Source: Leucoraja erinacea (Eukaryota). From it: a DNA stretch of 64,000 bases. The notes under the pieces were generated by a model. It was not told the origin of the DNA, made no database searches, and was given only the letters and a program-made list of their open reading frames with translations. Location of the stretch: the NCBI RefSeq assembly GCF_028641065.1, contig NC_073408.1:14322001-14386000 (forward strand). Direction: 5' to 3'. The translations under genes and the position numbers were made by a program. Positions within the stretch are counted from its first letter, which is position 1; every line of letters begins with the position of its first letter. Positions 5,580 through 64,000 of this stretch are shown here, piece after piece.

Positions 5580-5678
5580 CTTTCCGTTGCCTCTTGCAGT
5601 TCAGACAAACGTATATTATTGCCAAAATCATGGCAGCAGTTAGGGGGATCAGGACCAGAGCATAAAGAAAAGGATAAT
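5580..5678 (-). CDS. Gene A transmembrane exon DYPFLYALVLIPLTAAMILAIIYVCLNCKRQRK
   Basis: tttcacag acceptor, AAG|GTAAAA donor, 99 nt; uncharged hydrophobic helix followed by a basic stop-transfer segment. Confidence 0.9.
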
Positions 5679-6664: not shown

Positions 6665-6982
6665 CTTTCTGTTTTGTGTTTATCGAGATACTTCTGTTTC
6701 TCCAGCCGTAGTCGTTTTTTGCCATGCACCAATACATTCCTTCATCTTTACGCTGGAAACGTGTCCATTCTTTTGAACTGTTGAACCCGACTCCAGTTTG
6801 CAACGTTACATTATGATTCTCCGTGGCATTTGTCCAGAAAACAGTAGACACCGGATTACTATCTACGCGACAATTCAGTTCCAGGAATGAATCAGCAGCA
6901 ACAAAGATGATGCTATCATTGATCAGTCGAAAAGTATCCACTGCTTTCAACCTGTATGTTATTAATAGATCTTGTGGTCCAT
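6665..6982 (-). CDS. Gene A I/C2-set Ig domain exon
   Basis: ccgttag acceptor, G|GTAAAT donor, 318 nt; motifs YGP, LNCRVDSNP, W, DEGMYWCMAKNDYG. Confidence 0.93.
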
Positions 6983-8346
6983 CTAACGGTAAAGATAATG
7001 TACACTTTATTGTAGATTAAAGCAATGTGAAAAGAATTAACATGCAAGTAGACACAGAACAGCTATTCACAATCAAACTTTGCACTTCTGAAAGCTAATC
7101 ATTCTCAAGGGACCTCAGTATAACTCGGACTGCCACTGAAGCCAAGTTGGAAAGAATCCGATACGTAACAAAAAGCTAAGATTGTTCTTGTCTATGGAGA
7201 GTGAGGGATTGATGCGGAGAGGAAAGTGAATGCTAGAGTGAATGCTAGAGCTTAATGAACCATTTGCATGATGAAAGTTGAGATTCTTCGACATTACGAC
7301 TGGAGAAATGTAGCATTGTTCGAGGGTTATACAGCTGGTAGTAGAGAAATGAAGTGTTTGGTAAACGTAGCAAATGGAGGTCCAAATTCCTAGGGAATAT
7401 TGTTGGTGTGGCCATGAATAGAGGAGTTGATATTGAAAACAAAGTTAATGTAGGACAGAGGGCTATGAACTCAAAGACCTAAGGTTAATACAGGTACATA
7501 AGACGGGCATTGAAAATAGCGAGAAGAAGATACCACTCATTGCAAAAGCTTGCAGAGAAGAATCAACTTTTGTTGGTAGAGAAAGAGAGATATGAAGTCT
7601 AAACAAGCAGAGATGCAAACGGGTGAAGTGTTACAGGAGATGGTGGTGGTGAAAGGTTTGGTGAAAGGGAGCCTAGAACCTCTGTGAGACCGTAGCCAAG
7701 AAGTTTGGAGAAGGAGCAATTAGTTATACTTGAAATACTTGAAATACTTTTATCAATGCACACACGCACAATGAGGACTTAGATGGCAAAAGTCCAATTC
7801 TAAAATAAATAGGATAGAACATGAATATGGAAGGGAGAGGGATGATGAATATTGATCCACCCTGTAAATGTCATAAACTCTGATTGCGAAGGAAGGTTAG
7901 CAGGATTAGCTTTTAAGATTGCCTCAGTGGAGATGGGGAGACACACACATAGGATTACCAAGAGATATCTATAAATAAGCTTCAAACTGAACTGAGAATG
8001 ATTCAAATCTGGGAAATAATCATCATAGTTAGAAGACAATTAGGGGCAGATTAATTAAAAGCAATTGAGAAAGGTGCATTGAAAGTTTGGGTCTGAGTAA
8101 CAGGACAAGAGAGGAAGGCAAAATAGAAGAAACCAAGAACAATACAAATGAGAGAAAATGTAAGTGATAAAACTAATGGAATGGGTCAATGAGCAGGTAA
8201 TGTAGATGCAGAAGATGTTCAGTTACACTGGTATAGATGGTGATGTACAGTGCATTTCAGTTATAACACAACGATGTGCATACAATAAGAATTCAAAGAT
8301 TAGCAATACAGTGAATACCACTTCAAAAGTTATAGATGATACTTAC

Positions 8347-8637
8347 ACATAATATTTAGTTTGATCGTATTTACAGCTGGCCGTCTAAAAATGGAATGAT
8401 TAATCTGACAACTGCAAACAGTTCCATTGTCTTCCACTCTTGGGACAATCTTGTAATGACTGGTGGCAACTAGTGTGCCATTCCTGTCTCTTTCAAAAGT
8501 TGGTGCAGTGATAATTGTAGAAGTGCATGTCCATGTAAAGGAGATATCCTTGTCGTACAATCCCTTGCCAGTGCAGGTTAGAGTGGATTCATGACCAGCA
8601 ACCAAAGTATCACTCCGTATATACATTTCTGGAAGAT
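8347..8637 (-). CDS. Gene A C1-like Ig domain exon
   Basis: tctcag acceptor, T|GTAAGT donor, 291 nt; motifs LTCTGKGLY..ISFTW, DRNGT, CQINH. Confidence 0.92.
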
Positions 8638-11513: not shown

Positions 11514-11861
11514 CATAAACCTGTATTCGTGTTCCTTGGCCCTTTTCATGAACTGGAGGGAAGACATTTGGTACCTTCACCTCACAAATGTAGTCGTAAA
11601 CAGATTGATCAAACGATACATTTTCAATCTTCAGTGATACTGTACAGTTGTTGAAACCACGCCAGAGGGGGTGAGGAATGCAGACCGAGTTGTTCGTGTT
11701 GTAAGTAACATCATCCTCTCTAGGCGATTTCCGATACCATGAAACGCGGAGCCAGGCATTCACACTTCCATTATAACTAAACGTACAGTTTAACGTGACG
11801 GACTCGCCTCTCCACACCTTGACCAGACGTGGCTGGATCAAATTTGCGATTAGCGGAACTC
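11514..11861 (-). CDS. Gene A V-set domain exon with J-like GQGTRIQV
   Basis: ttttccaccag acceptor, G|GTAAAG donor, 348 nt; motifs VTLNC, VSWYR, LKIENV, YIC, GxGT. Confidence 0.95.
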
Positions 11862-12617
11862 CTGGTGGAAAATAAATACATTTGTCAATGATACTCCCGT
11901 TAGTAGTTCAATAAACATTCACTTTACACACTGAACGAGGGATTGGTTTTCTAACGGAAACAATACTTAAAAGAAACGCATTCAAATCTGACGTTTTCAA
12001 ACAACGATTCTCGATTCCATGATGGTTGCAAATGCCTTCTCTCAGCAGATTCGGTGGCAGGTGGCACCGTGATATTTGGACGCTAGAAAAGACACAAGTG
12101 GCTGGAGTAACTCGGCGGGTCAGGAAGCATCTCAGGAGCACATGGATGAGATGATTTTTCAAAGTCTGGAAAAGGGTCCCGACCCGAAACGCCTCCTATC
12201 CATGTTCTCCTGGGATGCTGCCTGCCTGACCCGCTGAGTTGCTCCAGCACTCTGTGTCTTCACTTGCAAACCAGAATCTGCTGTTCTTCGTTTCTACACC
12301 TTCGTAAGATTCTTGCTTTGTGCTCTCTGATGGAGTTGTAGTGACCGAATTATATCTCAAATGTTTTAACTATTTGAATCTTTGCAGGCAATCGCAGTCA
12401 ATGAAGATGCAAAACTTGTATTCCAACATTAAACATATAGATTAAATGGAGACTAAATATTTTGAAGGGTTTCTCGGCCTTTGAGCAGAGATATTAATCG
12501 ACTTGCTGTTTTAATAACAGACTCGCTCCTGAACTACCTATCGATTCAATATGCCACATAATGTAGATCCTCATCACGGCTCCTTGGTCCACAGATTGTC
12601 CGATCAACATAACTTGC

Positions 12618-12666
12618 CTTGTGTTCCTGCATGCAGGATGAAAAGCAGCTTCAGGAGGAGTTGCAT
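12618..12666 (-). CDS. Gene A leader exon MQLLLKLLFILHAGTQ(G)
   Basis: ATG followed by a hydrophobic signal peptide; ends AAG|GCAAGT (GC donor, phase 1); conserved in copy B. Confidence 0.8.
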
Positions 12667-17099: not shown

Positions 17100-18860
17100 C
17101 TGGATTCAAGATTCAAGATTCATGATTCAAGAGAGTTTATTGTCATGTGTTCCTGATAGGACAATGAAATTCTTGCTTTGCTTCAGCACAACAGAACATA
17201 GTAGGCATGACTACAGAACAGATCAGTGTGTCCATATAGAATTATATAAATATATACACACATGAATAAATAAACTGATAATGGGCTATTAATGTTCAGA
17301 GTTTTGTCCGAGCCAAGTTTAATAGCCTGATGGCTGTGGGGAAGTAGCTATTCCTGAACTTGGTCGTTGCAGTGTTCAGGCTCCTGTACCTTCTACCCAA
17401 AGGTAGCGGGGAGATGAGTGTGTGGCCAGGTTGGTGTGGGTCCTTGATGATACTGCCAGCCTTTTTGAGGCAGCGATTGTGATAGATCCCCTCGATGGAA
17501 GGGAGGTCAGAGCCGATGACGGACCGGGCAGTGCTTACTACTTTTTGTAGTCTTTTCTGCTCCAGGGCGCTCAAGTTGCTGAACCAAGCCATGATGCAAC
17601 CGGTCAGCATGCTCTCAACTGTGCACCTGTAGAAGTTAGAGAGAGTCCTCCTTGACAAACCGACTCCCTGTAATCTTCTCAGGAAGTAGAGGTGCTAATG
17701 TGCTTTCTTAATAGTTACATCAGTGTTCTCGGACCAGGAAAGATCTTCAGAGATGTGCACGGTCAGGAATTTGAAGTTCTTGACCCTTTCAACCATCGAC
17801 CCGTTGATATAAACGGGACTGTGGGTCCCCATCCTACTTTTTCCAAAGTCCACAATCAGTTCCTTGGTTTTGCTGGTGTTGAGGGCCAGGTTATTGTGCT
17901 GGCACCATATGGACAGTCGCTCAATCTCTCTTCTATACTCTTATTCATCCCCATCAGTGATACGTCCCACAATAATGGTACCATCAGCGAGCTTGATGAT
18001 GGAGTTCGCACTATGACAGGCTACGCAGTCATGAGTATAGAGTGAGTACAGCAGGGGGATGATCACGCAGCCTTGAGGTGCTCCGTGCTGATTGTTTTCG
18101 AGGCTGACACAATTCCACCAATATGAACAGACTGTGGTCTGTGAATGAGTAAGTCGAGGATCCAGTTGCAGAGGGATGCGCAGAGACCCAGTTCTGCGAG
18201 TTTGGTAACCAGCTTGGAGGGGACGATTGTATTAAATGCCGAGCTGTAATCAATGAATAACAGCCTGACATATGAGCTTTTGTTGTCCAAGTGGTCCAGA
18301 GCAGAGTGGAGGGACAGCGAGATCGCATCCACCGCTGATCTGTTGTGGCGGTCAGCGAACTGCAGTGGGTCCAGGTTTTTGTCGAGGTAGGACTAGATTT
18401 GCGCCATGATCAACCTCTCAAAGCACTTCATCACCACAGGCGATAGTGCCGCTGGTCGATAGTCATTGAGGCACGTCACCTTGCTCTTCTTGGGCACTGG
18501 TATAATTGATGCCCTTTTAAAGCAGGTGGGAACCTCAGACCTCAGAAGTGAGAGGTTGAAAATGTCCGTAAAAACTCTAGCCAGTTGGTCCGCAAAGGTT
18601 TTTAGAACACGACCGGGTATACCATCAGGACCAGGTGCTTTTCGAGGGTTCACCCCTCTGAAGGATTTTCTGACGTCGGCCTCTGTGACTGAGACTGAAA
18701 TACCATCACAGTGAAATGGGGGCTTGGGAAGGCACATCAGTATTCTCCCCATCAAAGCGTGCATAAAATGCATTGAGCTCGTCAGGGAGTGATGTTTCGC
18801 AGACATTCGAGCTGCCTCCTTATTTCGCCTTGTTGGAGGTGATTGCATTCAGGCCCCGCT
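17100..18860 (-). mobile_element. Rex1/Babar-type LINE, disrupted reverse transcriptase (RT)
   Basis: [57 protein letters not shown]; split by stops and frameshifts. Confidence 0.9.
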
Positions 18861-25669: not shown

Positions 25670-25768
25670 CTTTTTGTTACCTATTTCGGAACAGGCAAAA
25701 ATATATTATTGCCAAAATGATGGCAGTAGTTAGGGGGACCAGGACCAGGGCATAAAGCCAAGGATAAT
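25670..25768 (-). CDS. Gene B TM exon DYPWLYALVLVPLTTAIILAIIYFCLFRNR*
   Basis: Homologous to the A TM exon; CAA>TAA stop lies before the retained donor at 25669. Confidence 0.8.
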
Positions 25769-26168
25769 CTGTGAAAGAAAATTCAAGGTTTCAACTAAAT
25801 GTAATGTTTCAGCTCTGAGAAACATAAAAAGTATAAAAAAAATACACTGCAATCGTTTTACTATATTTGACAGCAGGGTACATATTTCTTTCAAAGAGAC
25901 ACACTGCCATTTATAAACAAAACTACAGCACTCTAATGTTTAAATGTTCCAATTCTTCAATGGAAACACTATAAAATCAAAGCATTTGAAGATGACAGCA
26001 GTAAATCGTCTTTACTACATATGATTTGTAAAATAAATAAAATATTACAATTGATCAATCACTAAGATCAATAAAAAAGACATTGAACTAATTAAGCTGA
26101 GGTGTTATTTGCTAAGAATGATTCCACCTCAATTACCTAGGCACATGTATAATTACATTTCTATTTAC

Positions 26169-26486
26169 CTTTCCGTTTTGTGTTTATCGAGATACTTCTG
26201 TTTCTCCAGCCGTAGTCGTTTTTTGCCATGCACCAATACATTCCTTCATCTTTACGCTGGAAACGTATCCATTCTTTTGAACTGTTGAACCCGACTCCAG
26301 TTTGCAACGTTACATTATGATTCTCCGTAGCATTTGTCCAGAAAACAGTGGGCACCGGATTACTATCTACGCGACAATTCAGTTCCAGGAATGAATCAGC
26401 AGCAACAAAGATGATGCTATCATTGATCAGTCGAAAAGTATCCACTGCTTTCAACCTGTATGTTATTAATAGATCTTGTGGTCCAT
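26169..26486 (-). CDS. Gene B I/C2-set exon
   Basis: 318 nt, AG/GT; 3 amino-acid differences from A. Confidence 0.93.
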
Positions 26487-28372
26487 CTAACGGTAAAGAT
26501 AATGTACACTTTATTGTAGATTAAAGCAATGTGAAAAGAATTAACATGCAAGTAGACACAGAACAGCTATTTACAATCAAATTTTGCACTTCTGAAAGCT
26601 AATCATTCTCAAGGGGCCTCAGTACAACACGGACTGCCACTGAAGCCAAGTTGGAAAGAATCGAATACGTAACAAAAAGCTAAGCTTGTTCTTGTCTATG
26701 GAGAGTGAGGGATTGATGCGGAGAGGAAAGGGGAGTGAATGCTAGAGCTTAATGAACCATTTGCACGATGAAAGTTGAGAATCTTCGACATTACGACTGG
26801 AGAAATGTAGAATTGTTCGATGGTTATACAGCTGGTAGTAACGAGATGAAGTGTTTGGTAAACGTAGCAAATGGAGGTCCAAATGCCTAACCGTTTGAAG
26901 AGTCAACCCAGTAATATAATTCTTAGGTGATTTCCTTCACCTGTCGGAACACAGGTGGGTGTGGGGTTGTAAGTGATTTATACGGCTACCACAAATGATC
27001 ACAGATACCCCTGCATATGGTGAGAGTACTAGGGCCACCTGTGAAGGGAATGCTAGAGTAACTCAGCGGGCCAGGCAGCATCTCTGAAGAGGGAATGGGT
27101 GACGCTTTGGGTCGAGACCCTACTCCCGCTGAGTTACTCCAACTATCTTCTTTTTAAACCAGCATCTGCAGTTTCATCCTACACATGATAAGGGAATATT
27201 GTTGGTGTGGCCATGAATAGAGGAATTGATATTGAAAACAAAGTTATTGCAGGACAGAGGGCTATGAACTCAAAGACCTAAGGTTAAGACAAGTACATAA
27301 GACGGGCATTGAAAATAGCGAGAAGAAGATACCACTCATTGCAATGAAGTACAAAACAAGCAGAGATGCAAAATACAATACAATACTATACAAAACAATA
27401 CAATTTATTGTCAACGAAATTCTGTTTCCACAGCCATACAAACAAAGACAATTTCCTACAGACATACACACAATTTAATTCACACAAACAAGTCCCCCCC
27501 CCCCCCCCCCCTGCTCCCCACATATACCACATTTAAAACTAGTATTAAAAAAAACACCAACACTACATTTAACTAGACAAAAAATAAAAAAAAGACAGAA
27601 AGGCTGTAGGGGGCGCTGCAACGGGTGAGTCGCGCCACCAACCAAAGGGTGAAGTGTTGCAGGAGATGGATAAGGACAGAAGAAAGTGAGTTTTGGTGAA
27701 AGGGAACATAGAACCTCTGTGAGGCCGTAGCCAAGAAGTTTGGAGAAGGAGCAATTAGTTATATTTGAAATACTTTTATCAATGCACACACGCACAATGA
27801 GGACTTAGATGGCAAAAGTCCAATTCTAAAATAAATAGGATAGAACATGAATATGGAAGGGAGAGGGATGATGAATAATGATCCACCCTGTAAGTGTCAT
27901 AAACTCTGATTGCGAAGGAAGGTTAGCTGGATTAGCTTTTAAGATTGCCTCAGTGGAGGTGGGGAGACACACACATAGGATTACCAAGAGATATCTATAA
28001 ATAAGCTTCAAACTGAACTGAGAATGATTCAAATCTGGGAAATAATCATCATAGTTAGAAGACAATTAGGGGCAGATTAATTAAAAGCAATTGAGAAAGG
28101 TGAATTGAAACTTTGGGTCTGAGTAACAGGACAAGAGAGGAAGGCAAAATAGAAGAAACCAAGAACAATATAAATTAGAGAAAATGTAAGTGATAAAACT
28201 AATGGAACTGGGTCAATGAACAGGTAAAGTAGATGCAGAAGACATTCAGTTAGACTGGTATAGATGGTGATGTACAGTGCATATCAGTTATAACACAACA
28301 ATGTGCATACAATAAGAATTCAAAGATTAGCAACCATTGAATACCACTTCAAAAGTTATAGATGATACTTAC

Positions 28373-28663
28373 ACATAATATTCAGTTTGATCGTATTTAC
28401 AGCTGGCCGTCTAAAAACGGAATGATTAATCTGACAACTGCAAACAGTTCCATTGTCTTCCACTCTTGGGACAATCTTGTAATGACTGGTGGCAACTAGT
28501 GTGCCATTCCTGTCTGTTTCAAAAGTTGGTGCAGTGATATTTGTAGAAGTGCATGTCCATGTAAAGGAGATATCCTTGTCATGCAATCCCTTGCCAGTGC
28601 AGGTTAGAGTGGATTCATGACCAGCAACCAAAGTATCACTCCGTATATACATTTCTGGAAGAT
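28373..28663 (-). CDS. Gene B C1-like exon
   Basis: 291 nt, AG/GT; 4 amino-acid differences from A. Confidence 0.92.
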
Positions 28664-30269
28664 CTGAGAGAAGATAAAGCATAAAGTATTAAACTATATA
28701 TCACACATTTCAATGTTAGTGAAACTTACTGACAGAGTAAGTTGTCCAAAATTCTGCTCTATTTTCATAGAGAATATGTTAAATTAATGATGTAGAATTA
28801 TAAAAAAAATATAGCCCTTCTTTAGCTGAGACGCATCAAGGATCAAATATATGCTGGACCATTATAATATTACTCCATGGTCCTGGCAAAATGAGATCAT
28901 GTATATCCAACAGACTCACAGTCTTTTGGTTAGTATTGGCGATACTTGTAATGCACAGTAATGCACAGTAAAACATTTCAGTGAGAGAATAGTGGTAACT
29001 TGAGTTAATAATAATCACTGTAGAAATTTATGGTATAGAACAAGAGATCCCAACCTGGGATAAATTTACCCCCAGAGGGTAAATTTCGCCTACCTAGGGG
29101 GTAAATTTGTTGAGTCTGGATTTTGTACATATTTTTTCTCATTGACTGACTGTGTTTGGTTCTGGCATACCGGTATCTGTTCATCATTAGTTGTTCATAT
29201 ATAAGTGAAATAACATTGTTATGTGCTATTAAAGTTGCCAGTGGTAATCGGGACGAAAATGGTTGAGAACCCCTGGTGTAGGAGATACATGCTGCTCTAA
29301 AACATACGTTAAATTTACTCTCACTTCTCAAGTTCAAAGCCCTGTAAGTGATGCACTTCAAGTGCTTATTCAGGTACATGAAATTTGGTGAAGATTTCTA
29401 CTTCTTTTACCCATTCTGGTGATGAATTCCAGTCACTGCCACTGATTAAGTGAATTTATTTGTTTAATAAGGAATTGCAGATGCTGGAAAATCGAAGGTA
29501 CACAAAAATGCTGGAGAAACTCAGCGGGTGCAGCAGCATCTATGGAGCGAAGGAAGCTTCATAGATGCTGCTGCACCCGCTGAGTTTCTCCAGCATTTTT
29601 GTGTACGTCCAAGTGAATTTATTTGTTCACAACATCAACCCAATTTTGTCTACCAGCTAAATTACATCTATGCTTCTAAGTTACTCCGGGCAACGAGATC
29701 CAAGTCCTTTCTGGTTTGTTTGTTGAGACCTCACATAATTTAATGCACTGCAATTTAATTGCTCCTCAGACTTAATTGTTGCAAACAAAGGAGACCAACC
29801 CTGCTCTGCTCTTTTCTCACCCATAGCTATGTGGCTAAGCATAGCTCCAACGCCATCTATCAACTCAACAATGACACCATAGTGGTTAGCTGAATTAGGG
29901 GTGGTGATCAGTCAGTCCGCAAGAGAGAGATGGAACAACTGGTTGATTGGTGCTGCAACAACAAACTCTCACTCAAGGTCAACAAAACAAAGTAGCAAAT
30001 CATTAACTTTGGAATGGTGAAGTCGGGCGACAACATGCAGTTTTTAAGATTGGGTCAATGGTGGAATGAGTTAGCAACTTCAAATTCCTGGATGATAACA
30101 TCTCAGATGACCTCGCTTAAGCAGAGCACATAGCTGTAATCATGAAAAAGATCTACCACTGCCTCTACTTTGTTAGAAGTTTAAAAATTAATTGGGTCAA
30201 TAATATTATTGATTTCATAAACATAAAGTGGCGAGACTGGAGATCATCATGGTATTACAAATACTTTAC

Positions 30270-30617
30270 CATAAACCTGTATTCGTGTTCCTTGGCCCGT
30301 TTCATAAATTGGAGGGAAGACATTTGGTACCTTCACCGCACAGATGTAGTCGTAAACAGAGTGACCAAACGATACATTTTCAATCATCAGTGATACTGTA
30401 CAGTTGTTGAAACCACCCCAGAGGGGGTGAGGAATGCAGAGCGAGTTGTTCGTGTTGTAAGTAATATCAGCCCCTCCAGGCGATTTCCGATACCATGAAA
30501 CGCGGAGCCAGGCATTCACACTTCCATTATAACTAAACGTACAGTTTAACGTGACGGACTCGCCTCTGCACACTTTGACCAGACGTGGCTGGATCAAATT
30601 TGTGATTAGCGGAACTC
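30270..30617 (-). CDS. Gene B V-set (VJ-type) exon
   Basis: 348 nt, canonical AG/GT; 15 amino-acid differences from A. Confidence 0.95.
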
Positions 30618-30667
30618 CTGGTGGAAAATAAATACATTTGTCAATGATACTCCCGTTAGTAGTTCAA

Positions 30668-31407
30668 TAGGGTGATTTCACCTAAGGTCAAATGAGCGTA
30701 GATCCCCCCTCACGTGACCGAAAATTTTTACTGGAGGACATCTCTCAGTTTGGTACATGTAAGTGAATGGGGAAACACGCACTTTCCCACCCGTTAAAAA
30801 CATGGAAAACGGCCGATTTTTGAGCTGAAATTTTCTGTGCTAGTCGGGGTGACCGTAAAGCACAGCGACCTAAAATTTCAGGCAAAAAAAAAGATAGAAA
30901 GTAAGGTAATTACAAGAGGGAACTGAAGGTAGAAAGCAGTGGAAGTGAACAGCTGACATTTGCCGTGGTGATTTTAAGATCCAAAATATCGGGAATTATC
31001 GCGTTTGCTCGCTGAATTTCATCAAAAGGAAGGCATTATTAACTTACTTTTGATGAAATTTAGCGAGCAAACGCGATAATTCCCGATATTTTGGATCTTA
31101 AAATCTCCACGGCAAATGTTTGCTGTTCAATTCCGCTGTGTTCCACCTTCAGTTCCCTCTTGTATTTACCTTACTTTCTATCTTTTATTTTGCCTGAAAT
31201 TTTAGGTCGCTGTGCTTCACGGTCACCCCGACTAGCACAGAAAATTTCAGCTCAAAAATCGGCCGTTTTCCATGTTTTTAACGGGTGGGAAAGTGCGTGT
31301 TTCCCCATTCACTTACATGTACCGAACTGAGAGATGTCCTCCAGTTAAAATTTTCGATCACGTGAGGGGGGGTCTACGCTCATTTGACCTTTGGTGAAAT
31401 CACCCTA
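30668..31407. mobile_element. 740-bp foldback element (two ~365-bp inverted arms) in gene B intron 1
   Basis: TAGGGTGATTTCACC...GGTGAAATCACCCTA; ~10-nt loop at 31033-31042; empty site in A at ~11911. Confidence 0.9.
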
Positions 31408-32113
31408 TAAACATCCACTTTACACACTGAACGAGGGATTGGTTTTCTAACGGAAACAATACTTAAAAGAAACGCATTCAAATCTGACGATTTCAAACAC
31501 CGATTCTCGCTTCCATGATGGTTGCAAATGCCTTCTCTCAGCAGATTCGGTGGCAGGTGGCACCGTGATATTTGGACGCTAGAAAAGACACAAGTGGCTG
31601 GAGTAACTCGGCGGGTCAGGAAGCATCTCAGGAGCACATGGATGAGATGATTTTTCAAAGTTTGGAAAAGGGTCCCGACCCGAAACGCCTCCTATCCATG
31701 TTCTCCAGGGATGCTGCCTGCCTGACCCGCTGAGTTGCTCCAGCACTCTGTGTCTTCACTTGCAAACCAGAATCTGCTGTTCTTCGTTTCTACACCTTCG
31801 TAAGATTCTTGCTTTGTGCTCTCTGATGGAGTTGTAGTGACCGAATTATATCTCAAATGTTTTAACTATTTGAATCTTTGCAGGCAATCGCAGTCAATGA
31901 AGATGCAAAACTTTTATTCCAACATTAAAAATATAGATTAAATGGAGACTAAATATTTTGAAGGGTTTCTCGGCCTTTGAGCAGAGATATTAATCGACTT
32001 GCTGTTTTAATAACAGACTAGCTCCTGAACTACCTATCGATGCAATATGCCACATAATGAAGATCCTCATCACGGCTCCTTGGTCCACAGATTGTCCGAT
32101 CAACATAACTTGC

Positions 32114-32162
32114 CTTGTGTTCCTGCATGCAGGAGGAAAAGCAGCTTCAGGAGGAGTTGCAT
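32114..32162 (-). CDS. Gene B leader exon MQLLLKLLFLLHAGTQ(G)
   Basis: Paralog of the A leader with the same GC donor. Confidence 0.8.
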
Positions 32163-48077: not shown

Positions 48078-48784
48078 GTATTAAAATACAACTCTCAAAT
48101 ATTCAGATTGCCTTATAGTTCAATATTTGTTTAGGTTACTTTTATATTCAGTTATGTAATGAATACTCTATACCTCATTTCATGCATCCCTATTCAATAT
48201 TCCAAATAATTAAAAATGGCTTCATTTCAATAAATGTTCATCAAAAATTAATAATCCAATAAAATAAAAATACACCATAAATTAAAAAAATGCACAATCA
48301 TATATATTTTAAAAATAATTGATGCAATGGGAAGCCAATGTTAAACTTAGGCCCTCTACTCCCATCTGCTTTCATCTGCTCATCATCTGCCCCTCCCCTG
48401 GATCCATTTGCACATTCTCTGCTCCCCATCTGGTTCTACGGGTTGCCAACTAATCCCCATCCCATTCTCCCACATCCAACTACATACTGGTTATCTTTTC
48501 CAATCCCCCCAACGTCCTGTTGCATGGACTCACCCAAAACATATAATACCTTCAGCCTCCCGACATTCTGCTTGACCCACTGAGTTCTTCCAGCATTCTG
48601 TTTTTGTCTCCAGTTCAGCATTGCTTTTAGTCTAGTTTTGTTTAGTTTAGAGATACAGTTTGGAAACAGGCCCTTTGGCCCACCAAGTTCACGCTGATCA
48701 ATGATCCCCTGGTGTTGTTTAAAGTGAGCTTCCGTGGGACTATTAATGGATGTAAAAATAACAAATTTATTTATGTTCCATCAG

Positions 48785-49132
48785 GAGTTCCGTTGATCAC
48801 AGAGTTGACCCAGCCACGTCTGGTCAGTGTGTGGCGGAGCCAATCCGTCACGTTAAACTGTACATTTACCTATAATGCAAGTGTGAATGCCTGGCTCCGT
48901 GTTTCCTGGTATCGGACATCGCCTGAAGGGGCTGATGCTACTTACAAAATGGACAACTTGCTCTGCATTCCTCACCCCCTCTGGGATGGTTTCAACAACT
49001 GTACGGTATCACTGAAGATTGAAAATGTATCGTTTGGTCACTCTGTTTACGATTACATTTGTGAGGTGAAGTTACCAAATGTCTTCCCTCCAATTCATGA
49101 AAAGGGCCAAGGAACAAGAATACAGGTTTATG
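48785..49132 (+). CDS. Gene C V-set (VJ-type) exon
   Basis: ccatcag acceptor, G|GTAAAG donor; 93/116 amino acids identical to gene A V. Confidence 0.95.
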
Positions 49133-51388
49133 GTAAAGTATTTCCAATACTATGATAATCTCCAGTCTCTGCACTCTATACAGGTTTATGATAAAGTATT
49201 TATATAATTCTGCAGAAATGCAGTTCCTATAGTATATATATTGATTATACTTACATATCATACCACATTTAGATACATTGACATAGATTAATAACACACA
49301 CCATGGGAAGTCAGGCTAATTAATTGTAATTCATTCCAACCAAGAAGAATAATAAGTAATTTACCAATGTTGATTGTGGAATTTTCAGTCAAATGTAGTC
49401 TGTGCAGTTATGTAGCCAAGGCAAAGGGATCATAAAATAAAGTTGGGGAAAGGTAGAAACATTGAGCAGTATAGGTTACAACTGTGTTAAGAGAAACAAT
49501 TAAAGTTTATTTTTCCACAAATTCTGCCTGAGAGCTTGCAATAGTTTTTATTTTCAACTCAGATCTCCAGCATCTGCAGTTTTAATGCAAAGAATCATAG
49601 GTTAGGTATGAAGACTATCACTGAAATTAATTTTGTGCGTCTTTCATTGTTATTATCTGCTCCAAGTGTTGGCAGGATGGATACAATGGGTTTAGAGGGT
49701 TAATGGCCAGGCGCAGGCAGGTGGTACGAGTGTAGATGGGGAATATAGGTTAGCGTGGGCAAGTTGGGCCGAAGGGCCTGTTTCCATGCTGTATGACTCT
49801 ATTAGCTGGTTTTACAATTGTTAAAATATTCCAAATATTTGGATTGCCTATACTTCAATACATGTTTAGGTTAAATTTATATTCAGTAATCTACTTGATA
49901 ATTTAGTAGTTTGTATGTTAGATACCTATGTGCACTTACACTTAGGTTGTAAGCTGCAGGCAAATGGGTCTAGATCCTAATCCTAACATTGTGGGGAATG
50001 GGTATGGTGGGCCAAAGGGCTTATTTCCATTCTGTACAGCACTATAACTCTATAACCACCTCCAAAATTCTCCGTCATCACTGCTTAATCTACAAAGTTT
50101 GAAAGATTATTACCATGGTCTTTACATTTTTCTCTTCTCTTTGGCGGATTATTCTCTCTCTCCTGCAATGCACTGACCCCCTTCATCAATACTGCCACGT
50201 CCCTTCTTGTCTTCCCTTCCCCATCCTTCTGCAGTATCTTCATCCAAGAATGTTACACTTTCTTTTTGGACATATCTCTGGTTTTCTTGTCACATTCTAA
50301 TCCTGGGTGTTCAGTTGGTCTTTCAGGTCACCAACAATTGTTAAATCCATATCTGATGTTAAATGCAGCTCTGTTTAACCTGTTCACTGCCAATTTTTTT
50401 TTCACTTTTGGCCAATGACCCAAGTATACTCGGGGGTGGCACTAAACAGGTTAAATGTGTAACGTACTCTGTCTATTCCTGCGTAACAACTCTCTATTAT
50501 TTGTTCTGGAAAAATGGATCACTGTCAATTTGTTCTGCTTCCTATAGAGATCCCGACAATTATTCCTTCCTTGACCCTAACTCTACTCCCCCTCTCCTGA
50601 ACAGTTGACCGACCCAGGACGTAAAGGATCTTGGCTCTGTTTGCTTCTCCCCTCAGTACACACAACTGAATGGTGAATAGGGTAAGATGTCCTGAGAGGT
50701 CAAGGCCCGAAATGTCACCTGTACCTTCTCCAGAGATGCTGTCTGACCCACTGAGTTACCCCAGCTTTTTGTGTCTATCTTCAGTTTAAACCAGCATTTG
50801 CAGTTCTACATTTGCTACATATGCCCTGAGAGGTCTTTGGCTTAATATCGATAATATCAAAAACAAAAGAGCAATCCAACCAAGACCTCAACAGTGGAAC
50901 AGGCGGAGAATGATGGCTGTCCTTTGTGGAGTGTCACAACGGCTGGGAAGGTGGATGAAGGCTGCAGTAGGAAAGGGTCTCCGGTCATCTTAGATTCCAT
51001 GCCACTGGATCCTGACCCAGATCTGTCAAGGACTGTGGGGTGGCTGTCTGTGCACCAGCCTCCCCACGTTAAACAAAGTCACGCACAGGTGTCCTCCATA
51101 TAGGGAATAACATTCTGGAGACACCCATAGTCAGCCATGACCGAAGGGGGCCTAAGCAGAGTAGGTCATGCAAACTTTGTCAACATTTATCCAAGTTAAC
51201 AATTAACAATACAATTTATAACACTCATGGGAATACCTTTGTGTGGGTCTACAAGACATTGGTTATCACCAGGAAAAAATAATATTTCTGATTCACATTT
51301 ACTGAAGTGGAATTGTTGTTAACATTAAAGATAGACACACAATGCTGATGTAACACAATGGGACAGGCAGCATCTCTGGAGAGAAGGA

Positions 51389-51529: not shown

Positions 51530-51856
51530 TCCCAGAATCTACACCAAAAATTCTAATGACTCAGGGAGATTTAATAGCAGAGAAAGCATCTGTTTTGTAC
51601 TGCCATGCATGGGGATTTTATCCTGAGAACATCACAATGCAATGGCAACATCCTCACAAAACTCAAGCTACAAAATCAGATGTTATTATTACCACAAAAC
51701 TCTCCCCTTCCAGGAACTCTGATGGCACATTTAATGCAACAAGTCAAATTAGTTTTACTCCCACCTTGCAAGACCACAGGACAGTCTGTACTTGTCAGGT
51801 TCTTCATACAACAAGCAAAGAGTGGATAATGCAACACATAACACTCAACGTTAATT
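51530..51856 (+). CDS. Gene C C1-set exon
   Basis: ttccag acceptor (alternative in-frame acceptor at 51536), T|GTAAGT donor; canonical C1 motifs LYCHAWGFYPENITMQW, NSDGTF, CQVLH. Confidence 0.93.
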
Positions 51857-60817: not shown

Positions 60818-60917
60818 GAACTCAAAGCAACACAGGAACCAACGCCGATTGGCCAAAAGTGACTCTTCGGAAAATGTTAACAGCCAAAAAGAGATCATAG
60901 CTATTTCTGAATTCTGA
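60818..60917 (+). CDS. Candidate terminal exon of gene C: RNSKQHRNQRRLAKSDSSENVNSQKEIIAISEF*
   Basis: Long polypyrimidine tract ending tcattag; open in phase 2; hydrophilic; AATAAA motifs downstream (~61452-61568). Confidence 0.5.
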
Positions 60918-62099: not shown

Positions 62100-63965
62100 G
62101 GTGCATGAAAAGTTCTTTATTTTAGAACACAAACAATGAGTCACGCGAGTCGAATAAGACAGCCAAAAATAATGTTGCTTCCACAAGTGTAGACACCAGA
62201 CTGGCAGTTACTGACAGTTAAATCAAAAAAACAAACTTCCAATAGAACACCCGCTGACGGAGATCCGCCAACACCGCCGGGGTGTCTTCTGGGTGCCCTC
62301 GAACCGCATGGAGTAAATCCCCGGGCACGCGCAAAGCCGAGTCGTGGACCAATTCGGCGGACGATGCATCCAAATCTGCCTTGGGGGCCGTGCAAATGCC
62401 TAAGAGGACCCAAGGCAACAGGTCTACCCAGTCTGGACTCGTGAACCATGCCTTCAGGGCCGCTTTCAAGTGGCGGTGGAACCACTCCATGAGTCCGTTT
62501 GCCTGGGGGTGATAGGCGGTGGAGTGGTGCAACTGTGCCACCACTGGGAGGGCCGGGCGGAACATGGTGTCAGCCAGTACTTCCTGGCCACGTGGGTGCA
62601 CCAGCATGGTGGCTCCAGCGAACGCCGCTTTTGCACCCTTGAGGCACTGGAAAAGGGGGCACATGATTCTGGCCGCCGCCAGCATGAAACGGTGGTAGAA
62701 GTTTACCATACCGACAAACTCCTATAGGCCTTTCACAGTTGGCAGCCTGGGGAACTGCCGGATGGCCTCCACCTTAGAGGGCAATGGGGTGGCGCCCTGC
62801 GAGGTGACGTTGTGGCCCAGGAATGAAATCATGCAGAGTCCAAACTGGCACTTGGCGGGATGACAGAGTAGTGGAGCCGCTGGAAAAGCATCCGCAGGTG
62901 TACGAGGTGCTCCTGTTGGGAGCGGTTCATGACCAGGATGAGTATAAATGGGGATCCTGTGGATAGGGTGAACTGTTTTAAATATCTGGGAGTCCACATC
63001 TCTGAGGATATGACATGGTCATCACACGCCTCAGCACTGGTGAGTAAGGCAAGGCAGCGCCTTTACCACCTCAGGCAATTGCGGAAATTCAGAGTGTCTC
63101 TGAGGATCCTCCAGTGCTTCTACGCAGCAGCAGTGGAAAGCATCTTGTCCGGGAACATTACAATCTGGTTCGGGAATTGCTCTGCCAAGGACAAGAAGGC
63201 TCTGCAGAGAGTAGTGCGTTCGGCCGAACGCACTATGGGAACTTCACTCACCCCCCTGCAGGAACTATACAACAAGAGGTGCAACTCCAGAGCAAATAAA
63301 ATCATGAGAGACCTCTTCCACCCCTGCAACAGACTGTTCCAGCCGCTGCGGTCAGGCAAACGCCTCCGTTGCCATGCAGTGAGAACGAAGAGGTTGAGAA
63401 GGAGTTTCTTCCCAGAGGCAATTCGGACTGTAAACGCCTTTCTCACCAGGGACTAACTGTACAGAACGTTTTTCCTTCTATTATTTATTACGTAAAATAA
63501 TATGTGTGATTGTGTTTAGAATTTGTTTGGTTGTTTTTGTTGTTCCGCGAGCATTGCCACTTTCATTTCACTGCACATCTCGTATGTGTATGCGACAAAT
63601 AAACTTGACTTGACTTGACTTGACTTGGATGTCATCGAGGTAAATGTAGATAAAGTTCAATCCCTGACCGACTATGTCCATTAGGCGCCGGAACACCCGA
63701 GCTGCGTTCTTCAAACCGAAGGGCATGCGGAGCCACTCAAACAGCCTGAACGGGGTGATGGTGGCAGTTTTGGGCACGTCTACCGGGCGCACAGGGATCT
63801 GGTGATAACACTGGACCAGGTCCACCTTGCAGAAAAAGATGGTGCCCTCCAGATGGGCCGAAAAGTCCTGTCGATGTGGGACCGGGTAGCAGTCCACGGT
63901 TGTAATGGCGTTCAGGCGCCTGTAATCCCCGCGCCTGCAATTACATGCGTACGCACAGCCGTCTG
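62100..63965 (-). mobile_element. Degraded Ty3/Gypsy pol (RT and integrase fragments)
   Basis: DYRRLN...YPVPH, KVDL..YHQI, MPFGLKNA, YLDD; CQFG..FLGH; YHPQANGLMEWFHRHLK..W..LPWVLLG. Confidence 0.9.
62929..63627 (+). mobile_element. Rex1/Babar-like LINE 3' part, nested in the Gypsy element
   Basis: FKYLGVHISEDMTW...KARQRLYHLRQLRKF...; (CTTGA)n tail. Confidence 0.85.
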
Positions 63966-64000
63966 GAGCGTGTGACATCATTTGAAGATGGACACAAAGC

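What the first reader, a model, noticed from the sequence alone, without database searches (positions are those of the whole stretch)
11514..11861. Germline-joined VJ domain with a CD28/CTLA-4-like FG loop, sitting on a C1 domain
The exon ends CEVKVPNVFPPVHEKGQGTRIQV. The J-like GxGT strand is encoded in the same exon, with no recombination signal sequences (RSS). VFPP...GQGTRIQV resembles the B7-binding MYPPP...GNGTQIYV of CTLA-4/CD28, and WLRVSW resembles TMIGD2/CD28H (comparisons from memory). V(J) joined to C1 is the antigen-receptor module, so these genes bear on models of the pre-RAG ancestor. They may bind a B7-family ligand.
Basis: partly seen in the sequence, partly recalled or inferred. 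Interest (0 to 1): 0.7.

Follow-up and report, generated by a model that had tools for sequence, protein, structure and literature searches.

The report
Ancient paired skate immune receptor trio
This skate exon is the unsplit, antibody-like tip of an intact surface-receptor gene that databases label a Siglec; it likely acts as an immune brake, next to a tail-less copy and a predicted activating partner that has acquired nearly the same tip, in a family shared by sharks, rays, chimaeras and some bony fish.

Summary
11861-11514 (- strand) is one AG/GT-bounded exon encoding a V domain with its GxGT strand, no canonical RSS, spliced to a C1 exon; the modelled FG loop carries the prolines. The window holds two paralogues: a tail-less copy, and an inverted gene with a transmembrane Arg whose V is 80% identical but whose C1/I are 32% identical, indicating V-exon conversion. 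Relatives occur in sharks, rays, chimaera, paddlefish, sturgeon and bonefish. The V is closest by profile to CD28H-like VJ genes and shares their 14-residue Cys-to-GxG spacing, so the CD28 lead is partly real. But PPP is absent (0 of 19), the PP is shifted and found only in elasmobranchs, CD28-family single-V architecture fails, and trees do not resolve its sister group; two placed Siglec V domains beside it. It lacks Siglec hallmarks. Best reading: a likely paired inhibitory/activating innate receptor family working like SIRP or Siglec-5/14, for which ten paper searches found no description. B7 binding is untested; there is no special link to the pre-RAG ancestor.

The parts
12618..12666 (-). 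Gene A leader exon (GC-AG intron follows)
   Evidence: 17 of 17 match to leader of P0006; donor gcaagt
11514..11861 (-). Gene A VJ exon (the finding): B-F Cys pair C25/C92, extra conserved C60/C72, FG loop P97, P101-P102, GQGT
8347..8637 (-). Gene A C1-type exon
   Evidence: Pfam C1-set 29 bits; splice sites
6665..6982 (-). Gene A I-set/Ig_3 exon
5580..5678 (-). Gene A uncharged TM exon; five tail exons with TIYAVV, VSYADI, SEYSVV lie 3.4-13.6 kb left of the window (G000:C32:14318628 to about 14308400)
32114..32162 (-). Gene B leader exon
30270..30617 (-). Gene B VJ exon, 87% aa to A
28373..28663 (-). Gene B C1 exon, 96% aa to A
26169..26486 (-). Gene B I-set exon, 97% aa to A
25670..25768 (-). 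Gene B uncharged TM exon with in-exon stop three residues after the TM (tail-less form)
48785..49132 (+). Gene C VJ exon, 80% aa to A; DNA likeness to A spans only 48716-49191 (inferred conversion tract). Leader not found
51530..51856 (+). Gene C C1 exon, 32% aa to A, 57% to sawshark P0011
   Evidence: Pfam C1-set 46 bits
55047..55367 (+). Gene C I-set exon, 32% aa to A, 55% to P0011
57991..58068 (+). Gene C TM exon with Arg at the outer end, matching sawshark and sturgeon short-tailed members
60818..60917 (+). Probable last coding exon of gene C, no tyrosine; a small exon between it and the TM is inferred from phase, not located
   Evidence: weak tblastn match to P0011 tail, E 0.046

Best explanation
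The exon is the membrane-distal, non-rearranging VJ domain of an intact leader-VJ-C1-I-TM receptor with three ITIM/ITSM-type tail motifs, likely the inhibitory member of an old paired innate-receptor family whose predicted activating partner (gene C) and tail-less copy (gene B) lie in the same window. Shown: exon structure, domain order, tail motifs, TM Arg and tyrosine-free tail in C, and the mosaic identity pattern. Inferred: the V domain binds a cell-surface self protein through its C-C' and FG loops (most likely an Ig-superfamily protein; a B7-family member about 30%); phosphorylated tail motifs recruit SHP-1/2; gene C signals through an ITAM adaptor of the FcR-gamma/CD3-zeta type via its Arg (rule recalled); gene B competes for ligand without signalling. 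Gene C's stalk split from A's before sharks and rays diverged, and its V exon was later overwritten from the A/B type in the batoid lineage, which would keep both receptors on the same ligand, as when a pathogen mimics the self ligand.
For: Open frame over L-V-C1-I-TM with canonical splice sites, 356 of 368 identical to the spliced Logan ORF P0006. Tail motifs kept in 10 of 10 long-tailed chondrichthyan members among 16 full-length proteins examined; 4 of the 16 have a short tail and TM Arg (sawshark x2, paddlefish, sturgeon); the 2 bonefish proteins have their own tyrosine motifs. A versus C: V 80%, C1 32%, I 32%; C's C1/I are closest to sawshark P0011 (57/55%), A's to whale shark P0012 (53/51%); V_C nests among batoid V domains, SH-aLRT 97; DNA likeness covers the exon plus about 55-70 nt each side, dS about 0.17. 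A versus B: 15 non-synonymous and 2 synonymous changes in V against 7 and 4 in C1+I (Fisher p 0.0025 for the excess in V), many in the C-C' loop and F-G region. The same conversion logic is described for SIGLEC5/14 and 11/16 (PMC4042635, passages).
Against: No ligand, signalling or cell-type data. dN over dS in V is not significant on its own (p 0.38). Gene C has no located leader, and RNA laid on it showed only repeat-dominated depth and no exon junction among the rows shown, so it could be a pseudogene. Gene A RNA depth is only about 1-2 on exon bins in 2 of 4 runs and could come from gene B. Exon shuffling rather than conversion could give the same mosaic. Placement of the bonefish proteins in the family rests on 28-32% V identity and support of 97 but 69/81 or broken monophyly in the smaller trees.
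Confidence: 0.7

Rival explanations
1. A CD28-family offshoot that kept a B7-family ligand: a CD28H-like VJ exon placed on a C1-I stalk, acting as a lymphocyte checkpoint (compatible with paired signalling; it differs in ancestry and ligand).
For: Best profile match is the CD28H-like/EIPPP group in both directions (hhalign 116; reciprocal median 37.6 bits against 10-31 for other groups). Cys-x14-GxG in 18 of 19 family members and in skate CD28H, CD28HL1, CD28X and CD28-cluster gene 3, against 9 in 3 of 3 IgL-like VJ exons. PD-1 and CTLA-4 clusters among the Atlas hits for the skate V.
Against: PPP in 0 of 19, PP shifted and absent in chimaera, paddlefish and bonefish. Without the FG loop and G strand the group scores 12-38 bits, overlapping a Siglec-like V (36) and TCR V (18-27). 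The family never joins the CD28H-like genes in the trees. The Atlas query with the bonefish V ranked CD33/CD22-like and antigen-receptor clusters first. Fast V divergence between A and B fits a conserved ligand poorly.
Confidence: 0.25
2. A sister lineage of the Siglecs that kept the canonical B-F disulfide and J-like strand: same three-domain, ITIM-tailed layout as CD33-related Siglecs but a protein-binding rather than sialic-acid-binding V.
For: Two LG+G4 trees put skate Siglec V domains beside the family (93/93; 94/82). Domains 2-3 match MAG and Siglec-8 as one stretch and a teleost Siglec is the best D2+D3 and D3 hit in my limited set. NCBI names most members Siglec or MAG-like.
Against: Neither branch is starred; the 70-row mixture-model quick tree separates them; AU tests reject none of the alternatives (p 0.29-0.44). 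No F-strand Arg (0 of 19), F-strand Cys kept (19 of 19), E-strand Cys two residues out of register with the Siglec one. D2 alone is closest to C1 domains of tapasin-like and B7-H6-like exons, with no Siglec D2 in the top 16.
Confidence: 0.2
3. [quoted passage not shown]
For: Single-exon VJ on a C1; top sequence and Foldseek hits are Ig lambda and TCR alpha V; gene C's C1 hits UrIg2 and Ig light chains; family+antigen receptors not rejected (AU p 0.44).
Against: Antibody chains swamp the PDB, and structural scores are tied across many V and I domains. The antigen-receptor clade excludes the family at 95-96/89-90. No FGxG, no modelled C'' strand, an extra Cys pair, an I-set third domain and an ITIM tail. 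UrIg/UrIg2 are the published candidates, with linkage to MHC and Ig/TCR loci (PMC12227049, parts 1-4 read); the TCR V exons I found lie on other contigs.
Confidence: 0.07

Closest known systems
CD28H-like genes (CD28H/TMIGD2, CD28HL1-3, CD28X; PMC11599192)
   Same: Single-exon V with GxG, 14 residues from F-strand Cys to GxG, prolines in the FG loop; best profile match
   Different: Those are single V-TM-tail proteins with EIP or PPP motifs; this has V-C1-I, no PPP or EIP, an extra D-E Cys pair, a paired activating partner, and lies on another contig
SIRP alpha/beta paired receptors
   Same: VJ on C1, ITIM-type inhibitory form and charged-TM short form; SIRP alpha and gamma are matched over V+C1 (E 1.6e-28, 8.8e-25); paddlefish and sturgeon members are annotated SIRP-alpha-like
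   Different: SIRP is V-C1-C1 with Lys/DAP12 (recalled); here the third domain is I-set and the charge is an outer Arg; SIRP V was not in my trees
CD33-related Siglecs, especially SIGLEC5/14 (PMC4042635)
   Same: Three Ig domains, ITIM tail, neighbouring activating gene homogenised in the ligand domain by conversion
   Different: No sialic-acid-binding Arg, canonical B-F disulfide kept, J-like G strand, domain 2 scores as C1
UrIg/UrIg2 and PRARP (non-rearranging VJ-C1 genes)
   Same: Unsplit VJ followed by C1
   Different: UrIg has three or more C1 domains, is liver/gill expressed and MHC- or Ig/TCR-linked (PMC12227049); this has one C1, an I domain and an ITIM tail.
NFAM1 V domain
   Same: Only gene-specific Ig family hit in Pfam: Ig_NFAM1 in 2 of 19 members, best E 6e-4
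   Different: Below the curated cut-off; NFAM1 is single-V with an ITAM (recalled); a lead only

Membership tests
CD28 family | Single extracellular V domain, then TM and tail (criterion of PMC11599192) | tested here: not met
   V-C1-I-TM in genes A, B, C and orthologues
CD28 family | PPP or EIP motif in the CDR3/FG loop | tested here: not met
   PPP 0 of 19; PP 15 of 19 at positions 9-10 of the loop against 7-9 in CTLA-4
CD28 family | GxG in strand G at CTLA-4 spacing | tested here: met
   Cys-x14-GxG in 18 of 19, one has 13 (three rows read by eye after a regex slip)
CD28 family | V domain groups with CD28-family V domains | tested here: inconclusive
   Best by profile, not by tree; AU p 0.41
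CD28 family | Conserved synteny block of a known member | tested here: inconclusive
   Skate CD28 cluster (C7), CD28H (C29), CD28HL1 (C1), CD28X (C45/C1437) map elsewhere; flank scan covered 131 of 463 candidate ORFs
CD28 family | Binds a B7-family ligand | not testable with these tools
   No binding data
Siglec | F-strand Arg for sialic acid (recalled; present in 5 of 6 skate Siglec-like V exons) | tested here: not met
   0 of 19 at the position
Siglec | B-E intra-sheet disulfide with loss of the F-strand Cys (recalled) | tested here: not met
   F-strand Cys in 19 of 19; E-strand Cys two residues out of register
Siglec | V plus C-type domains with ITIM tail | tested here: met
SIRP | V-C1-C1 ectodomain (recalled) | tested here: not met
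   Third domain is I-set/Ig_3
SIRP | V domain orthology to SIRP | not tested
   No SIRP V sequence was available for the trees; SIRP alpha ranks among tied structural hits
Rearranging antigen receptor | Split V and J with RSS | tested here: not met
   One exon, no canonical RSS
Paired inhibitory/activating receptors | Similar ligand domain with ITIM tail in one gene and charged TM with short tail in a neighbour | tested here: met
   Genes A and C
Paired inhibitory/activating receptors | Opposite signalling on a shared ligand | not testable with these tools
   Needs cell assays

The most novel reading that the evidence does not exclude
An unnamed receptor family dating to the first jawed vertebrates, made by grafting a CD28H-type VJ exon onto a C1-I stalk: a paired on/off checkpoint for a B7-family ligand, kept in cartilaginous and basal ray-finned fish, whose activating partner is re-tuned by V-exon conversion. 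It would link the CD28/B7 system to SIRP/Siglec-style paired receptors.
Probability: 0.2. Interest if true: 0.75.

Novelty: new variant of a known kind. Interest (0 to 1): 0.52.

Why it matters
It adds a low-copy, conserved VJ-C1-I paired receptor to the short list of single-exon VJ genes used to argue about the origin of adaptive immunity, corrects 'Siglec' and 'MAG-like' annotations in many shark and ray genomes, and gives a clean case of ligand-domain conversion between partners whose stalks split before sharks and rays. Three genes with near-identical tips make ligand and signalling directly testable. It does not move the search for the pre-RAG ancestor much.

Tried and rejected
Fold searches gave only a generic V-set fold: Foldseek E-values within a five-fold range over 50 rows, VIA-align Z 12.2-10.5 across unrelated Ig domains; CTLA-4 and NKp30 were not listed, which excludes nothing. 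PDB sequence searches were swamped by antibodies. The single-sequence model was poor (pLDDT 65) and not used. NFAM1: no skate match over the cut-off. No RNA holder listed by the run search; RNA lays were dominated by repeats. Gene C's leader was not found by likeness or pattern. No complex prediction was run: there are many candidate B7-like partners and one job would not decide. Earlier findings by place and by sequence were empty. Paper searches showed no description of this family; two returned nothing; Ohta 2019 (PMC6761025) was not held and the PRARP paper was not read. A label slip: P0092 was called inhibitory, but has a TM Arg and a 6-residue tail; I use whale shark P0012 as the inhibitory comparator. 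Panel names such as nectin-1-like, TIM-like, BTN-like, NKp30-like, tapasin-like and IgL-like are my recalled identifications; CD28H, CD28HL1, CD28X and CD28-cluster genes were matched to motifs in the paper's supplements. The panel is enriched for CD28H-like genes by how it was gathered, and TCR V exons lack J.

Full report
Observation. The coordinates mark one exon on the minus strand, 348 nt, with AG and GT ends. It encodes a V-set domain with the GQGT strand in the same exon and no canonical RSS within 300 nt. The model built on 16 aligned sequences is confident (pLDDT 89.2): the prolines lie in the FG loop, no C'' strand is assigned, and C60 and C72 sit on the D-E hairpin, so a second disulfide is inferred (coordinates not inspected).

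The gene. Gene A is leader (GC donor), VJ, C1, I-set, uncharged TM, and five tail exons left of the window with TIYAVV, VSYADI and SEYSVV. The frame is open and 356 of 368 residues match the spliced Logan ORF P0006. RNA reads gave depth of about 1-2 on exon bins in 2 of 4 runs and none in the intron bins 7272-8123; no exon junction was among the rows shown. Domain 2 scores higher as C1-set than C2-set_2 in 12 of 15 full-length members that have it, lower in 2, and neither in the chimaera protein.

Two paralogues. Gene B is a recent tandem copy that stops three residues after the TM. Gene C is inverted, has an Arg at the outer end of its TM and a probable tyrosine-free tail. Its V is 80% identical to A's, its C1 and I only 32%, and these are closest to a short-tailed sawshark protein (57%, 55%). 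DNA likeness between A and C is confined to the V exon plus about 55-70 nt each side. I infer that the stalks split before sharks and rays and that C's V was later replaced from the A/B type. Between A and B, amino-acid change concentrates in V (15 non-synonymous against 7 in C1+I, with equal dS; p 0.0025), though dN over dS in V alone is not significant. A protein search of the genome found only these three V exons at E up to 0.001 (17 candidates scored).

Range. A profile search returned 21 proteins: 19 chondrichthyan family members, including chimaera, and 2 teleost Siglecs far behind. Paddlefish, sturgeon and two bonefish proteins share the layout and the extra Cys pair. I saw no tetrapod V-C1-I member, but read only 15 of the 65 hits, and the searches are word-limited. 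Of 16 full-length proteins, 10 have the chondrichthyan tyrosine tail, 2 a bonefish tyrosine tail, and 4 a short tail with TM Arg; some sharks also have an Arg form built on the inhibitory-type ectodomain.

What the V is related to. Scored against skate V exons, the family profile ranks CD28H-like and EIPPP-type VJ exons first, and profile-profile scores agree: 116, then amphibian three-V proteins 105, IgL-like 81, other VJ 78, nectin/CTX 66, TCR V 64, Siglec 63, CD28 cluster 36. The Cys-to-GxG distance is 14 as in CTLA-4 and the skate CD28 family, though three unassigned skate VJ exons share it. Against this: PPP is absent, the PP is shifted and restricted to elasmobranchs, and the lead shrinks without the FG loop and G strand. 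Trees treat the family as its own lineage, outside the antigen-receptor, nectin and CD28-cluster clades; two put Siglec V beside it without starred support, one does not, and AU tests reject no pairing. Siglec hallmarks are missing; the database names probably come from domains 2-3, which match MAG and Siglec-8.

Mechanism. Most likely a paired innate receptor system: A inhibits through SHP-type phosphatases on binding a self surface protein, C activates through an ITAM adaptor on the same or a mimicked ligand, B buffers. Anatomy is shown; ligand, adaptor and cell type are inferred. The SIGLEC5/14 pair is the documented analogue for conversion (PMC4042635, passages).

Literature. PMC11599192: parts 1-5 of 6 and supplements 2 and 4 read; it defines the CD28 family as single-V and lists CD79, NITR, SIRP, CD8, NKp30 and PRARP as joined-VJ relatives; its other seven supplements were not read. 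PMC12227049: parts 1-4 of 8 read. PMC10751288: passages. Ten searches found no description of this family; key subscription papers on PRARP and the primordial immune complex could not be read, so 'undescribed' is provisional. An earlier unreviewed note of this scan (e1-9934486) reached a similar reading for what appears to be the electric-ray member; it is not independent support.

Verdict. Interest 0.52.

Noticed in passing
window 25670-32162 and 5580-5678: NCBI model XP_055516779.1 (P0001) equals gene B's ectodomain (336 of 336) joined to gene A's TM (32 of 32) and tail: a chimeric model or a read-through transcript.
   Followed up: partly
L069 (G000:C1:13699050-13699349): Skate VJ exon whose CDR3 resembles shark CD28HL2 in the supplement of PMC11599192, a gene that paper did not find in rays. 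Synteny not checked.
   Followed up: no
L065/L135 (G000:C13:5575584-5577488) and L063: An EIPPP-type VJ exon followed by a C1 exon, beside a second EIPPP VJ gene: another CD28H-like V on C1.
   Followed up: partly
L012:8611-8973 (-): Single-copy divergent V-set exon 19 kb right of the window, no F-strand Cys, weak hits to CRTAM/CADM (E 0.005-0.05); no second Ig exon found; unidentified.
   Followed up: partly
L006-L007: PALP-family exons 30-50 kb left of the window that look like a cystathionine beta-synthase gene (identity recalled); a nectin-1-like V lies at C32:3.04 Mb (L036, identity recalled), suggesting the human 11q23/21q22 paralogon.
   Followed up: no
window 12613-12617 and 32109-32113: The leader introns of genes A and B use a GC donor.
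   Followed up: no
L112 (G000:C11:8896801-8897082): Siglec-like V lacking the A'-strand Cys that scores unusually high with the family profile (35-36 bits); possibly an intermediate form.
   Followed up: no
P0032, P0069, P0099: Three-V proteins (one named from a toad) whose third V has a GxG strand and scores 36-51 bits with the family profile.
   Followed up: no
window 17296-18848 and 62221-63999: Fragments of LINE-like and LTR-like retroelement frames; not analysed.
   Followed up: no
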